A stretch of 11,653 nucleotides of DNA, from assembly GCF_006345805.1 (NCBI RefSeq), contig NW_021826879.1, positions 1 to 11,653 of the forward strand, read 5' to 3'. The notes under the pieces were generated by a model that worked only from the letters and a program-made list of their open reading frames with translations, was not told the DNA's origin and searched no databases. This stretch comes from Octopus sinensis (taxonomy: Eukaryota). Shown one piece after another: positions 1 through 10,765 of this stretch. Made by a program: the position numbers and the translations under genes. The stretch's first letter is position 1, and every line of letters begins with the position of its first letter.

Positions 1-700
1 CATTTTTTCGGCGCTGTGCTTCGAACTGCAGTCGTGTTACTCCCGTTATTTGTTACATTATTTGGAGTCCTGTTTCTTCTTTATGTTTCCAGACAGTCTG
101 CCCCTATTCATTTTCCATTTCCTTATTATTACAAGACGGTTGGAATGGTGCTACTGGTTATCATGAGGAGATTGTATCCATTTGCATCGGGTCTTGACAC
201 TGAGGGCAAGGCGATGTCTGCCAGAGTTTTAGGAGCCACAACTAGTGCTGCCTTGAAAAAAATGGCAATTTCCGTTGTTGTTGTTTTTGTGACTTTTCTT
301 ACTGATTCCTTCTTTGTCTTTCGAACTCCGCGTCAAAAAATTTTCAAGTTAGACTTAGTGATATATATGCAGCAATAAGGCTTTCTTTTCCACACCATCA
401 ATCTCACGGCCTTTCCTTCTGCACATTCGTCGAGGCACAGCCCCGGCATGATTCCCTGGATTCTGAGGGGACATTAAGGACTCCTGTGGTTATTGAGATT
501 CTAACCCATTCAATATCGTTTATGATTACCTCGGACCTCACTAACTGCAAGAATTGTGCCACAATGGTATCTACGAATCAATGACAAACATCATTACCAA
601 TACTTTTCATTTTGGCCTTTGTATTGCAGCAATCCATACCCTGTGGTACTAGTGCATAAGAAAACACCTGTCCGGCTTGCTTCTTCAGCACGTAATCAGT
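1..700 (-). mobile_element. Decayed non-LTR retrotransposon ORF1 (L1/Tx1-like gag-like protein) remnant
   Basis: Manual minus-strand translation gives VRSEVIINDIEWVRISITTGVL, then after a frameshift LRIQGIMPGLCLDECAEGKAVRLMVWKRKPY-CCIYITKSNLKIF*. At 374-333 the spacing is C-x2-Y-x4-N-x4-stop with codons TGC/TAT/AAC/TGA, and the last three are each one substitution from TGT/CAC/TGY, so this is a degenerate CCHC zinc knuckle. A K/T-rich low-complexity tail follows. Boundaries are approximate. Confidence 0.5.
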
Positions 701-749
701 CTTAAAATTGCATTACCGCCGTCATTTCCCTTCTATTGAGAAAGGAGAC

Positions 750-1330
750 ACCTATCAAGGGCGGGCAAAATTCCTGAGATCCATGGATGAGTTCCCTCCA
801 GTGGTCTTTGTCCCTCATCATCGCTGCCATGTCTTGTGACTCTCAGAGACCAGTGTCTGTCTTTAGGGCATCAACATATGTCGCCCTTTTCTAGTATGTC
901 CATGCAGGGGCTCCCACAGGAGTACTGAGTGCAGTATGGACTCTGAATGACGGCGAGCATATCCAGCTAACCACAGTCTCCTCTGTGTTATTTTCGAGCT
1001 AACTATTGGGAGGTTCTCATACAGCTCTGAGTTTCTCATCTTCAGTGTGTACTGATTAATGTTCAGAGCCATCCTTAGCATTCTTGTGTAGCACCCATCC
1101 ATCAGCTGAGTGAGTTTCTTGGTCAGTGTCCAAGTCTCAGACCCGTACAACAGCACAGACTCCACTGCAGCAATGAAGAGACGGATCTTCTGGACCCTAC
1201 GAAGGTCCGACTTCCATAGGGATCTCAAACTGTGGCATGCCGCCCAGGCTTTGCTCGTCCTCTCAACTATATCACTATCGGTGCTCCCAATCTTTACTTC
1301 CAGATACAAGAAGTCCTCAACCAACCCTAG
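750..1330 (-). mobile_element. RTE-clade LINE, 5'-truncated 3' end of ORF2 (RT motif 7, thumb and C-terminal domain), pseudogenised
   Basis: ORF 863..1372(-) reads VEDFLYL..KAWAACHSLRSLWKSDL..KIRLFIAAVESVLLYGSETWTLT..MDGCYTRMLRMALN..RRLWLAGYARRH..LLWEPLHG..RKGR. After a frameshift near 880 it continues TYVDALKTDTGL*ESQDMAAMMRDKDHWRELI. These are typical RTE C-terminal motifs. Confidence 0.9.
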
Positions 1331-1349
1331 GGAGATATATATTTGCACG

Positions 1350-1961
1350 CACCTACCAGGGATTTTGTGCACTTGGGATCCACAATCAGCACCAGGGGAT
1401 CAAGTACACCAGAGATACGGAGAAGGCTCGCGATAGCGAGGCAAACGGTACAAGATATGGAGAACATCTGGAAGAGTCGTGGCGTGTCAATGCTGCTGAA
1501 GATAAGGCTACTTTGGGCTGCCGCTTTCTCTATAGCGACGTAAAGCTGCGAGTCGTGGACAATGTTGAAGGCAGACGAGAAAAGAGTGAGCGCTTTTGAA
1601 ATGTGGTGTTACCGCAGAATCCTTAGATTATCGTGGACGGAGGGAAGGACGAACAACTGGGTACTAGAAAAGATCGGTTGCGAGATGACGCTTCGGCGAA
1701 ACGTCATAAAGCGGGAGCTACGGTTCTTTGGCCGCGTCATGCGCCGGGATGAACTTGAGCGAACGATCATAACTGGCAAGGTGACCGGCAGACGTAAAAG
1801 AGGCAGACCACCCCCACTTCTTGGCTGAAAGACATAGCAGCCACAGGATTGTCTTTATTCTCAGCTGTCCATGGGGTAGAGCACAGGAGAAGGTGGCAAG
1901 ACATCGTGATGACCACAGCAACGCGTAGTGCGACAGCTGACTAGGATGATGATGATGATGA
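1350..1961 (+). mobile_element. RTE-clade (BovB-like) LINE, 5'-truncated 3' end of ORF2 with (GAT)n tail, pseudogenised
   Basis: One frame reads RDFVHLGSTIS..EIRRRLAIAR..IWKSRGVSMLLKIRLL..FSIAT*SCESWT..AFEMWCYRRILRLSWT..RFFGRVMRRD..GKVTGRRKRGRP. The TAA at 1541-1543 replaces the Y of the YGCESW motif. After a frameshift near 1815 it reads SWLKDI..HRRRWQDIV..AD* (TAG 1942-1944), followed directly by (GAT)5 at 1945-1959, a short-tandem-repeat tail typical of RTE elements. Confidence 0.92.
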
Positions 1962-5503: not shown

Positions 5504-5720
5504 AGGCGTTGAGGTGGCAGAATCGTTAGCGAATGAGACGAAATACTTAGCGGAATTTCTTCTGACTCATCCGTTACGTCTTGAGTTCAAATGTTGTCAA
5601 ATGCTGCCGACGTTGACTTCGTCAGTCATCCCTTTCGAGGATGGCAAAATGTGTACAAGTTGAGCACTGCCCCTCCCCTCAAAATAGCTGTTCTTGTCTC
5701 AAAATATAGAAAAGAATTAT
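5504..5720 (+). mobile_element. tRNA-derived SINE, family B, diverged copy
   Basis: ggcgttgaggtggcagaatcgttagc..gaaatacttagcgg..gagttcaaatg..gttgacttcgtcagtcatccctttcgagg is colinear with the reverse complement of 2043-2243. It carries a small internal duplication, tcaaatgttg/tcaaatgctg. Confidence 0.8.
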
Positions 5721-5729
5721 TTCGGTTGT

Positions 5730-5870
5730 GCATGTTACTGTTGCAGTTTTTGCAGCTGCAGCTGTTGCTGCAGGAGTTGTCTTTATCGGTATTGATGGTG
5801 GTGGTGGTGGTGGTGGTGATAGTCGCCGCCATCGTCGTCGTTGTCCTGGTAGTGGTCATGGTGGCGCTTC
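5730..5870. repeat. Degenerate trinucleotide tract (GCA/GTT/GTG/GTC)
   Basis: Includes pure (GTG)n at ~5798-5818. Confidence 0.8.
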
Positions 5871-5935
5871 GTCCCAGCAGAATTACGGTTGAATGAAGTC
5901 TTATGAAAAAAACAAAGAAAAAAAAAGAAAAAGGT

Positions 5936-6181
5936 GAACAGTTTCTGACGATCGAATTTCATTCAGAAAGTCTAGGTCGACACGACACTGTGGTAAAGAC
6001 ACTTGCTTGTCAAAAAGAGTCTGCGCAGTGAAGCAAGAGGAAGTGACTTCACAACCAAGTGGTTCCGCGTTCACTTCCTCCTGCTTCACTGCGCAGACTC
6101 TTTTTGACAAGCAAGTGTCTTTACCACAGTGTCGTGTCGACCTAGACTTTCTGAATGAAATTCGATCGTCAGAAACTGTTC
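5936..6181. repeat. Near-perfect long inverted repeat: 111-bp arms (5936-6046 / 6071-6181) with a 24-nt spacer
   Basis: Base-by-base comparison shows the arms are reverse complements at 110/111 positions, with the only mismatch A6036 vs C6081. The spacer contains aacca-ag-tggtt (6053-6064) on the same symmetry axis. Confidence 0.99.
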
Positions 6182-6330
6182 GGAAACCTTTCGGACGGAT
6201 TGTACTCGTTTTTCAAACAAATCCAACCTACACACACACTATGCCACATTAATTATCTCTTGGAATACTCAGCCACTTTGTTGTTAATTCAAAGAGTCGG
6301 TCATCCTGTTGATCGAACAGTTGCATGCCG
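6040..6330 (+). mobile_element. Old, diverged tRNA-derived SINE (family A head plus module T tail); includes the right arm of the palindrome
   Basis: cttcacaaccaagtggttccgcgttca..cactgcgc..gcaagtgtcttt..gtcgacc..gaaactg is colinear with the reverse complement of 6775-6895. Then tgtactcgtttttcaaa..ccaacct..cacact..ggaatactcagccacttt..gttaatt..gttgatcg (6200-6320) is colinear with the reverse complement of 9770-9925. Confidence 0.75.
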
Positions 6331-6414
6331 AAAGTTTATGAGCAATAAATATATTTTGGCAATTTCTTTTTTGTAAATGCAATTCTTAATAACATTGAAT
6401 TATGAAAATATACC

Positions 6415-6924
<510 letters not shown>

Positions 6925-6996
6925 ATAATAGAATTTCTTTTAACATGAGGGTTCAGTAGAGGGGTTCATATGCAAAAAATGGTTTGAGATCCTCTG
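6925..6996. mobile_element. Possible terminus of a non-autonomous hAT-like DNA transposon
   Basis: It ends aaaaaatggtttgagatcctctg, whose reverse complement cagaggatctcaaacc resembles the CAGTGGTTCTCAAAC termini of hAT-Charlie/MER5-type elements. No partner TIR was found. The AT-rich stretch at 6335-6412 may be the interrupted internal part. Confidence 0.35.
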
Positions 6997-7289: not shown

Positions 7290-7874
7290 TCATCGCAATG
7301 TTTGCAATCAAAATATAAAAACAACCAGAAAACATATCACAACGCTCTTTAACCGACCTTCAAAAAGCTCAGCCAATTCACCAGGTTGGGTCGGATGATG
7401 ATCGACAAATTTAAGGTGTTGGAAACAGATGTTAAGCCTTGGACGGATGAAGTATGCAGTGGAAAGCAATACGTGCGTACGTGTTTCAACAAAACTCAAA
7501 CACTTATCACAATGGATGCCAGGTAGTCTTTACGATCCTACAACACCAAACTTGCAGTCTACAAACTCTTCAGATCTAAATCCTATGGAGTTCAACGCAG
7601 AGAGCGTTGCTGAAAGAGAGACACATCGAGATCCTCAAGCTACAGCTTCAATAAAGGCCGCCATTGTCCAGGTGATGACGGAGATGAATAAGAACCATTT
7701 AGTGCAGGGATGTCTACGATTCCGGTTCTGCACTGAAGCGTTAATCGAAGCTGGAGGAGAATTCATGGAATATTCTAACAAGAAAACTTATCAAGAATTT
7801 TATACAAAATACATTTGGTTTTTGCAACGATAAAGTTGTTTTATTGGATTGCTAAATAACTCTCGCATCTTGTA
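7290..7874 (+). mobile_element. Tc1/mariner-superfamily transposase remnant, internally deleted and frameshifted
   Basis: From 7413 it reads KVLETDVKPWTDEVCSGKQYV, then across a tacgtg duplication YVFQQNS (the FQQD motif). It continues SQWM..NSSDLNPMEF..VAERETH..SIKAAIVQVMTEMNKNHLVQGCLRFR..EALIEAGGEFME (the SPDLNP motif and a typical C-terminus) to ~7770. A possible right end ..cgcatcttg|TA lies at 7872-7874. The 5' boundary is uncertain. Confidence 0.85.
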
Positions 7875-8977: not shown

Positions 8978-9356
8978 AACAACGAACATCAACAACAACA
9001 ACAACAACAGCAATCGTGATTGGGAAGCTGACAACAAAAACAACAAAAATTATTGAGGTCCCAGCACCACCACCACCACCACCGTCACCAACAACAACAA
9101 CAACAACAACAACAAAAACAGTGATGGAATTAGCAACAGAAAAACTTACAAAACATCCTGATAACAAGAATAGCAACAATGGCACACTAACAACAACAAT
9201 ATTAAGTGTGACAACAATAGCAACAAAACTGATATAACCGCCGCCGCTGCCGCCACCCGCACAGTTATCAACAGCCACAACTGTGATAAAATTAGCAACA
9301 GCAGAAGTGAGAGCAATAACGCAGATAACAATAGCAACTACAGGACAGCAACGGCA
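8978..9356. repeat. Degenerate (CAA)n/(CCA)n/(CCG)n low-complexity tract
   Basis: Runs of aca/cca/ccg triplets. The same tract resumes at ~9690-9740 and ~10115-10160, between and after the SINEs. Confidence 0.85.
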
Positions 9357-9695
9357 GGAGGCGCAATGGCCCAATGGTTAGGGCAGCGGAGTCCCGGTCG
9401 GAGGATCGCGGTTTCGATTCCCAGACCGGGCGTTGTGTGTGTTTATTGAGAGAAAGTACCTGAAGCTCCACGAGGCTCCGGCAGGGGATGGTGGCGACCC
9501 CTGTTGTACTCTTTTGCTCCAACTTTCTCTCACTCTTTCTTCCTGTTTCTTATCCCCCGACTTCCTACGCAACCGCTGAGCCTGAATGCGCATTCATCCA
9601 TCCGTCGATGCTCTCTTTCCTGCGGGTCTTACGAATAGCAAAGGACCACGTTTCGGACTTCTCCCACTGGGACGAAGACCGCTTCGCTCAAACAA
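9357..9695 (+). mobile_element. tRNA(Arg)-like SINE, family C head plus its own 3' module
   Basis: ggaggcgcaatggcccaatggttagggcagcgga..ggatcgcggtttcgattcccagaccgggcg contains an A-box (tggcccaatgg) and a B-box (gtttcgattcc). A possible TSD, acagcaacggcag (9345-9357) / acagcaacagcag (9696-9708), lies in low-complexity sequence. Confidence 0.88.
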
Positions 9696-9741
9696 ACAGC
9701 AACAGCAGTGGCTGCAACGACAATAGCAACAATACTACTAC

Positions 9742-10110
9742 GGCACTCCGTCGGTTACGACGAGGAGGGTTCCAGTTCATCCGATCAACGCAAAAGCCTG
9801 CTCGCGAAATTAACGTGCATGTGGCTGAGGACTCCATAGACACGTGTACCCTTCACGTATTTCTCGGCGAGATTCTGTGTGGCACAGAGTGTGACAAGGC
9901 TGGCCCCTTTGAAATACAGGTACAACAAAAACAGGAAGAAAGTGCGAGGGAAAGCGTACAACAATGTTCGCCACCATCCCCTGCCGGAGCCTCGTGGGGC
10001 TTTAGGAGTTTTCGCTCAATAAACACTCGCAACGCCCGGTCTGGGAACCGAAACCGCGACCCTACGACCATGAGTCCGCTGTCCTAACCACTGGGCCATT
10101 GCGCCTCCAC
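9742..10110 (-). mobile_element. tRNA(Arg)-like SINE, family C head plus module T tail
   Basis: The reverse complement from 10108 matches 9357 onward at 134/153 positions by hand count. Homology stops at 9929/9548. A different tail follows: tgtacctgtatttcaaaggggccagccttgtcacac..ctcagccacatgcacgttaatttc..cgtaaccgacggagtgc. Confidence 0.9.
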
Positions 10111-10411: not shown

Positions 10412-10683
10412 TCCTCCGTCGATTTCGACGATGAGCAATCATTTCCTCGATCAGTTAACCGACCTACACTTTGGTTCACGGCACGTAGTGGCCGTATATT
10501 CTACAAACACGGGCCCCCTTTGACATAAATCATAAGGAGGATCAATGAGACGTAGTCTGCGACAAAAGTGTTTACAGTTTCTTTTTTCGCAAGGTCCCAG
10601 TCAACCTTGAATCAAGCAGTGGGTTGAAATCGAAAACCTGACCGCGTGTTTCCGAAATGAACTTTTTAAACATTCGGCCATGA
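10412..10683 (-). mobile_element. Old, highly diverged SINE (family A-like head plus module T tail)
   Basis: ctccgtcgatttcgacgatgag..cgatca..gtggccg..acacg..ccctt..gcgacaa parallels 9746-9898. The minus-strand head catggccgaatgtttaaaaagttc..ttcaacccactgc..gaaactg parallels family A. Confidence 0.6.
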
Positions 10684-10765
10684 TGATGCATTGACAATAA
10701 TTGTTTCTCATTCAGTTCTTACACTCTGTTTCTCTAAAGGCCGCCGTTCAGAGCAATCGCTCTAA

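What the first reader, a model, noticed from the sequence alone, without database searches (positions are those of the whole stretch)
5936..6181. 246-bp near-perfect palindrome built from an old SINE: arms far younger than the sequence they are made of
Seen: the 111-bp arms match at 110/111 positions around a 24-nt spacer. The arm sequence is a heavily decayed SINE that shares only short blocks with the well-preserved family copy 600 bp away, for example aagacacttgc at 5996-6006 and 6832-6842, cagtttc and cgcagtg. Even so, both arms carry the same private substitutions and indels. SINE homology runs through the spacer and right arm and continues to ~6320, while the left arm stops abruptly at 5936 beside an A-rich run. 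Inference: this is not two independent insertions or a MITE. The left arm was copied from the right by fold-back or template-switch synthesis, or the arms are kept identical by arm-to-arm conversion or by selection for a long dsRNA hairpin. It is a candidate TE-derived hairpin RNA locus (endo-siRNA or proto-miRNA).
Basis: partly seen in the sequence, partly recalled or inferred. Interest (0 to 1): 0.75.

Follow-up and report, generated by a model that had tools for sequence, protein, structure and literature searches.

The report
Fold-back scar in old SINE
A 111-base mirror-image copy inside an old jumping-gene remnant is real DNA, found in several sequenced samples, and likely arose once when a growing DNA strand folded back on the remnant's own small hairpin; no function is shown, so it is likely an ordinary mutation scar.

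Summary
The palindrome is real. Its arms pair at 110 of 111 positions and it is single-copy in this probable octopus assembly. Contigs from three further studies break where the palindrome predicts. It predates alleles about 1.8% apart. The source is an old SINE copy, about 70% like its family. One arm mismatch is what neutral decay since that allele split predicts (expected 2), so neither conversion nor selection is needed. New here: the axis sits on the SINE's own AACC-N4-GGTT hairpin, and 12 other head-to-head SINE pairs in the genome share this axis. Ten have a 13-35-nt second arm. Best reading: one fold-back (template-switch) event on an aged SINE. Near-perfect close inverted repeats are common here (5 in 586 kb). 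One sample has a 1-nt arm deletion that may sit in both arms, which would show arm-to-arm copying; contigs cannot settle it. Expression could not be tested. The scan earlier noted a similar fold-back scar and many Penelope palindromes on other DNA of this genome.

The parts
5936..6046 (-). Left arm: inverted copy of 6071-6181 (SINE sense on the minus strand); the inferred new segment
   Evidence: 110/111 pairs; family profile hit 6072-5936; X4 contig 5822-5965 runs 30 nt into the arm
6047..6070 (+). Spacer: original SINE head sequence kept as the loop
   Evidence: alignment; 15/24 identical to the family line
6053..6064 (.). Pre-existing SINE hairpin AACCA/TGGTT, exactly on the symmetry axis; inferred seed of the fold-back
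   Evidence: in-register pairs 6053-6057 with 6060-6064; chance 2/454 to 11/454 axes in the element and 95 to 356 of 13,426 genome axes; same hairpin in the young-family majority line
6071..6181 (+). Right arm: source segment, part of the old SINE copy, with two private insertions
6047..6327 (+). Old SINE copy lacking roughly its first 30-35 nt (the part that would hold the A box; box labels recalled)
   Evidence: E 1.3e-35; aligns to L003-L006
6040..6046 (.). GAAGTGA, possible priming microhomology with TCACTTC (6071-6077); the family has GAAGT near this place, but the ancestral letters are not shown
   Evidence: alignment; the DNA fold of 6040-6077 closes this stem; inference
5905..5935 (.). 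A-rich run at the return junction; its last 6 nt (5930-5935) pair with 6186-6191 after a 4-nt offset
   Evidence: fold; (such a 6-mer in 29 of 5000 shuffles, noticed after the fact)
6759..6925 (-). Head of a younger SINE copy, used for comparison only
   Evidence: E 8.8e-29

Best explanation
This is a real inverted duplication of 111 bases of an old SINE copy, likely made once when a growing DNA strand folded back on the SINE's own small hairpin and copied itself, and its arms likely match only because that event is far younger than the SINE. Shown: the structure, its presence in independent samples, the SINE source, the axis on the AACC-N4-GGTT hairpin, and the same axis at 12 other loci. Inferred: a minus-strand 3' end near 6046 (stalled fork or resected break) folded on the hairpin, paired at about 6071-6077, was extended for 111 nt (perhaps 6 more after a 4-nt slip), and rejoined at the A-rich run, losing the SINE's 5' head. 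Since then the arms have likely drifted neutrally. Whether replication or break repair did it cannot be told. If a passing transcript covers the locus it would form long dsRNA, but none is shown.
For: Reality: X1 and X2 give contigs 6006-6111, 6082-6181 and 6152 onward, the breaks simulated for the palindrome; without the left arm the simulation gives one unbroken contig. X4 has a contig 5822-5965 at single-copy depth across the left junction (30 arm letters, one short of the tool's 31-letter bridging rule but the expected k-1 overlap). X6 shows the collapsed arm and loop. X5 (another organism label) holds 28 nt of left arm beyond the spacer. Age: X4 differs at 11 of 623 flank bases, so about 2 arm mismatches are expected and 1 is seen, P(<=1) = 0.42. 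The changes 6046 A>G (X2) and 6081 (C in the window, X1, X2; T in X4, X5, X6) affect one arm only. Mechanism: axis on the hairpin. B-box pairs lie 18 nt apart in 4 of 8 hits (P about 2e-4), and the on-axis register holds 10 of 23 loci (P 8e-5); reversed-pattern controls gave 0. L126 keeps the SINE head beyond its short inverted arm, as a template switch predicts. L131, a long on-axis pair, has arms 91% alike and each 95% like the family, so such pairs can decay freely.
Against: No allele without the left arm was seen, so the parent state is inferred from the family only; X7 is uninformative. The arm is 3-8 times longer than the 10 short on-axis arms (13-35 nt). Arms vary somewhat less than flanks: right arm 2/111 against right flank 12/191 segregating substitutions, p = 0.09; X4 1/222 against 11/623, p = 0.20; X7 has 0 differences in 95 arm bases against 7 in the flank. 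X6 depths favour a deletion in both arms of one haplotype over a one-arm heterozygous deletion by 13-24 to 1. Contig assembly can hide arm-to-arm differences in the outer arm. The on-axis searches demand exact motifs, so they favour well-matched short arms.
Confidence: 0.72

Rival explanations
1. The palindrome is kept matched by repeated arm-to-arm copying (conversion or repeated template switching), and may be much older, even dating from the SINE's insertion through fold-back of its cDNA.
For: In X6 the contigs with and without a 1-nt deletion at 6017/6100 have depths 10.8 and 8.9, which fits two copies each, for example both arms of one haplotype with one junction word lost (ratio 13-24). 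Arm variation is slightly low. Passages of PMC8794818 describe template switching repairing stems.
Against: The X6 contig layout matches a right-arm-only heterozygous deletion exactly; a homozygous right-arm deletion plus a stray word also fits the depths. No double change is seen between the window and X4 (2 expected under full concerted evolution, P(0) = 0.14). One-arm changes persist at 6046 and 6081. The long on-axis pairs L131 and L128 have arms 91% and 67% alike.
Confidence: 0.15
2. The hairpin is transcribed and kept by selection as a source of small RNAs or as an ADAR substrate.
For: Very stable fold; weak, non-significant deficit of arm changes. Template switching has produced miRNA genes in primates (PMC10710096 passages). 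Octopus has abundant dsRNA-forming loci and heavy hyper-editing (PMC5625713 passages).
Against: No Rfam family reaches its gathering score (11 weak matches). The 111-bp stem is far from the 35-bp stem preferred for miRNA precursors. The SINE head is lost and the B-box region disrupted. The two one-arm substitutions give a G-U pair on opposite strands, so neither strand is favoured. No host gene is evident in the window (by eye).
Confidence: 0.07
3. Assembly or library chimera (fold-back read).
For: The window is a whole unplaced 11,653-nt contig; loop depth is only 0.30-0.40 of flank depth.
Against: The same junction pattern appears in runs of three other studies, with sample-specific alleles in the arms; the X4 left-junction contig has depth 58 against 45-52 in the flanks. 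Low loop depth is expected of hairpins.
Confidence: 0.02
4. A mobile palindrome: a MITE, a Penelope-style inverted end, or a recent retrocopy of a SINE-containing RNA.
For: MITE-like and Penelope palindromes are frequent in this genome.
Against: No second copy of the arm or whole in the assembly (the search skips very common words). Flank contigs are unbranched at single-copy depth. The right arm runs on into the SINE body. No hammerhead family at E<=1. No poly-A tail at the SINE's 3' end by eye.
Confidence: 0.04

Closest known systems
Template-switching mutations that create hairpins (PMC10710096; PMC8794818; passages read)
   Same: One-step reverse-complement copy of adjacent sequence giving a near-perfect stem; an existing hairpin loop is proposed to trigger the intrastrand switch.
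   Different: Their miRNA-like stems were 30-55 bp and the largest rRNA pattern 59 bp, against 111 here. They had parent alleles; here the parent state is inferred. No expression is shown here.
Local fold-back inversions at double-strand breaks in yeast (PMC11724301; abstract and section 15 read)
   Same: A 3' end folds on a nearby inverted microhomology, is extended by 5 to over 150 nt, and joins the other end with 0-5 nt of microhomology.
   Different: Induced breaks in yeast with a 10-bp imperfect seed and 41-nt loop. Here a germline event with a 4-5-bp SINE hairpin and at most a 5-7-bp further seed; a break is not shown.
Sex-chromosome palindromes under arm-to-arm conversion (search listing and abstract starts only)
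   Same: Arms about 99% identical.
   Different: Those exceed 10 kb and show shared changes in both arms; here 111 bp and no proven double change.
Octopus tRNA-derived SINEs OK/OR1/OR2 (OR2 named as a CORE SINE in PMC4758252 passages; the names OK and OR1 and the match are recalled)
   Same: Abundant short repeat with a tRNA-like head shared between young and old subfamilies.
   Different: Family name not tested against a library; this copy has lost its 5' head.

Membership tests
Template-switch / fold-back inverted duplication | New segment is the reverse complement of an adjacent source, private changes included | tested here: met
Template-switch / fold-back inverted duplication | Locus-specific, not a dispersed palindromic family | tested here: met
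   the search skips very common words
Template-switch / fold-back inverted duplication | Pre-existing hairpin or inverted seed at the switch point | tested here: met
   on-axis 4-5-bp stem, present in the family line, recurrent at 12 other loci
Template-switch / fold-back inverted duplication | Microhomology at the return junction | tested here: inconclusive
   6-mer 5930-5935 / 6186-6191, 29 of 5000 shuffles, after the fact
Template-switch / fold-back inverted duplication | Parent allele lacks the hairpin | tested here: inconclusive
   none of 6 runs laid shows an allele without the arm; the X7 contig stops at 6087
MITE | Multi-copy element bounded by its inverted repeats | tested here: not met
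   single copy; the right arm continues into the SINE body
MITE | Target-site duplication flanking the arms | tested here: not met
   the bases on either side of the arms differ (by eye)
Penelope inverted end | Hammerhead-bearing, multi-copy terminal repeat | tested here: not met
   no hammerhead family among 11 Rfam matches at E<=1; single copy
miRNA / endo-siRNA hairpin | Transcription and 21-23-nt products | not testable with these tools
   no RNA run was laid; only contigs were served
miRNA / endo-siRNA hairpin | Stem of about 35 bp, or match to a known family (canonical pre-miRNA) | tested here: not met
   111-bp stem; all Rfam scores below gathering
Palindrome under arm-to-arm conversion | Changes shared by both arms between lineages | tested here: inconclusive
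   0 seen against X4 (2 expected); X6 deletion ambiguous; partner of 6119 in X5 unseen
Octopus OK/OR SINE families | Match to the published family consensus | not testable with these tools
   no repeat library here; homology shown only to genomic copies

The most novel reading that the evidence does not exclude
The tRNA-derived hairpin in the head of an abundant octopus SINE is a recurrent seed for fold-back synthesis that keeps making new long hairpins, and once made, a 111-bp palindrome copies changes from arm to arm in the germline (the X6 deletion standing in both arms). SINE heads would then be a standing source of self-repairing dsRNA hairpins in an animal with very high ADAR activity.
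Probability: 0.12. Interest if true: 0.6.

Novelty: new member of a known kind. Interest (0 to 1): 0.3.

Why it matters
As a single locus it matters little. It is a clean germline example of a long fold-back event that several samples share. The wider point is that fold-backs in this genome recur on one inherited SINE hairpin, a natural test of the proposal that existing hairpin loops trigger intrastrand template switching. If raw reads show the X6 deletion in both arms, it would be direct evidence of arm-to-arm copying in a palindrome of only about 250 bases.

Tried and rejected
Remnant of the SINE head in the left flank: score 14, reached by 3678 of 5000 shuffles and 1416 of 2026 real tiles; rejected. 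A longer decayed outer arm: reached by 4107 of 5000 shuffles; rejected, apart from the 6-mer. A decayed target-site duplication (5885-5912 against 6317-6349): 32 of 3000 mononucleotide shuffles, after the fact and overlapping the SINE tail; not relied on. A second haplotype or copy in the assembly: none. No RNA holder listed; this says nothing about expression. X5 and X7 have no cover on the left flank; not used as evidence. tRNA scan: 0 genes. Octopus miRNA sequences could not be compared: in PMC9699675, supplement 1 was too large to read, part 1 of 3 of supplement 3 lists no sequence table, supplement 2 was not opened. Pfam on 1592-1816: 0 families. Earlier findings near the locus or by sequence: none.

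Full report
Observation. The arms 5936-6046 and 6071-6181 pair at 110 of 111 positions around a 24-nt spacer, with one mismatch at 6036/6081. None of 200 shuffles folds as well. The window is a whole unplaced contig of a 2.7-Gb genome. I take it for an octopus from recalled SINE families and from earlier notes of the scan; this was not tested. Searches with 5900-6330 and 6047-6200 found the arm only here, with the caveat that the search skips very common words.

Is it real? Of 24 runs listed, 11 from 5 studies hold part of the stretch. I laid 6 of the 11; all are contigs. X1 may be the assembly's own source and is not counted as independent. X1 and X2 give contigs 6006-6111, 6082-6181 and 6152 onward, which is what a simulated graph of the palindrome gives; without the left arm the simulation gives one unbroken contig. 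X4 has a contig 5822-5965 at depth 58, ending 30 nt into the arm, and a break at 6152/6181; only half of its loop is covered, which I cannot explain. X6 shows the collapsed arm and loop. X5, under another organism label, carries 28 nt of left arm beyond the spacer. X7 stops at 6087 and says nothing about the left arm. An artefact is therefore very unlikely.

What it is made of. A profile from 15 genomic copies (chosen for length from 37 hits) matches 6038-6327 at E 1.3e-35. The right arm is 65/93 and the downstream part 108/143 identical to the majority line; the members themselves are 70-84%. It is an old SINE subfamily that shares its head with the younger copy at 6759-6925. Both arms carry two private insertions. 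The first 30-35 nt of the head are gone, and no remnant is detectable in the left flank.

Age of the arms. X4 differs from the window at 11 of 623 flank bases. If the duplication is at least that old, about 2 arm-to-arm mismatches are expected and 1 is seen (P = 0.42). The 95% interval on 1/111 is 0.02-4.9%, against 25-30% for the SINE. The changes at 6046 (X2) and 6081 lie in one arm only; the partner of 6119 (X5) is unseen. Against this reading, arms vary a little less than flanks (p = 0.09 and 0.20), though 7 of the 12 right-flank changes cluster in 30 bases. Assemblers may also hide outer-arm differences.

The open point. X6 has a 1-nt deletion at 6017/6100. Its contig layout equals the simulation for a right-arm-only heterozygous deletion. 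Its depths (8.9 and 10.8) fit two copies each, and a rough likelihood favours a deletion in both arms of one haplotype, with one junction word lost, by 13-24 to 1. A homozygous right-arm deletion with one stray word also fits the depths and was not scored. Only raw reads can decide.

Mechanism. Inside the spacer, AACCA pairs with TGGTT in the same register as the long arms. A stem this good falls on 0.4-2.7% of axes, and the young family's majority line, from 59 copies, has the same hairpin. Mapping this axis on the family gives 18 nt between facing B-box motifs; I derived that before the search but wrote it down only afterwards. A genome search over gaps of 8-30 gave 8 hits, 4 at 18. A second pattern gave 23 loci over 9 registers, 10 of them on the axis; 5 at the widest register look like mutated normal heads by eye and were kept in the count. 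Together 12 loci are on-axis. Ten have one short arm of 13-35 nt and two have two long arms, 91% and 67% alike. Those two may be separate insertions joined at the hairpin. L126, and weakly L113 and L132, keep the head beyond the short arm. Some of these young cases could have formed at insertion; for the present locus that would need long concerted evolution. The inferred path is fold-back of a minus-strand 3' end on the hairpin, priming near 6071-6077, 111 nt of synthesis, and return at the A-rich run.

Background. In 585,784 bases from 60 hand-picked stretches, 40 close inverted repeats were listed; 5 have arms of at least 100 nt and at least 97% identity. Three of the 5 have relatives elsewhere in the sample and two do not; none was checked against reads. 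Passages of PMC5625713 also report an exceptionally high share of dsRNA-forming loci in octopus. Such a structure is not rare here.

Function. None is shown. Rfam gives only sub-threshold hairpin matches, the stem is three times the preferred miRNA stem, and the SINE head is lost. Expression could not be tested.

Literature. I read passages of PMC10710096, PMC8794818, PMC4758252, PMC9699675 and PMC5625713, and the abstract and one section of PMC11724301. The listings of seven searches showed no report of fold-backs centred on an octopus SINE hairpin; I judged this from titles and abstract starts only. Unread supplements of PMC9699675 may hold miRNA coordinates that bear on this locus.

Verdict. 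A real germline fold-back duplication, a new member of a known kind, most likely neutral (0.72). The recurring axis is a modest addition. Interest 0.3.

Noticed in passing
L110, L111, L112, L113, L116, L119, L122, L126, L128, L129, L131, L132 (each near position 1500): Twelve head-to-head SINE pairs centred on the same AACC-N4-GGTT hairpin; ten have a 13-35-nt second arm, some sharing private variants with the long arm (L116, L126, L129).
   Followed up: partly
L085:6543-6997: Perfect 200/200 palindrome of a young SINE head around a (TA)n spacer that holds an extra 18-nt piece of the head; a real fold-back at the TA run or an assembly artefact.
   Followed up: no
L066:6777-7105; L076:4865-5113; L091:7967-8498; L047:2613-2751; L098:352-431: Near-perfect local inverted duplications, several beside or around TA-rich runs; L066, L076, L091 and L047 have no other copy in the sample (L098 not checked).
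   Followed up: partly
L109:1501-1552: Complex SINE head with both an inverted and a direct duplication, like a double template switch.
   Followed up: no
window 5885-5912 and 6317-6349: Weak direct similarity (32 of 3000 shuffles), possibly a decayed target-site duplication or another SINE tail.
   Followed up: partly
window 9777-9925 (-), 10429-10686 (-): Further copies related to the old SINE subfamily; other short repeats at about 5505-5720 and 9356-9790 by eye.
   Followed up: partly
window 1-1950: Broken pieces that look like non-LTR retrotransposon coding sequence by eye; Pfam gave no family for 1592-1816.
   Followed up: partly
window 7402-7860: Multi-copy repeat, 66-80% like its other copies, with a 143-aa frame that recalls a mariner transposase end (recalled motif, untested).
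   Followed up: no
window 6298-6327: Seven of the 12 right-flank substitutions among the laid runs cluster in these 30 bases.
   Followed up: no
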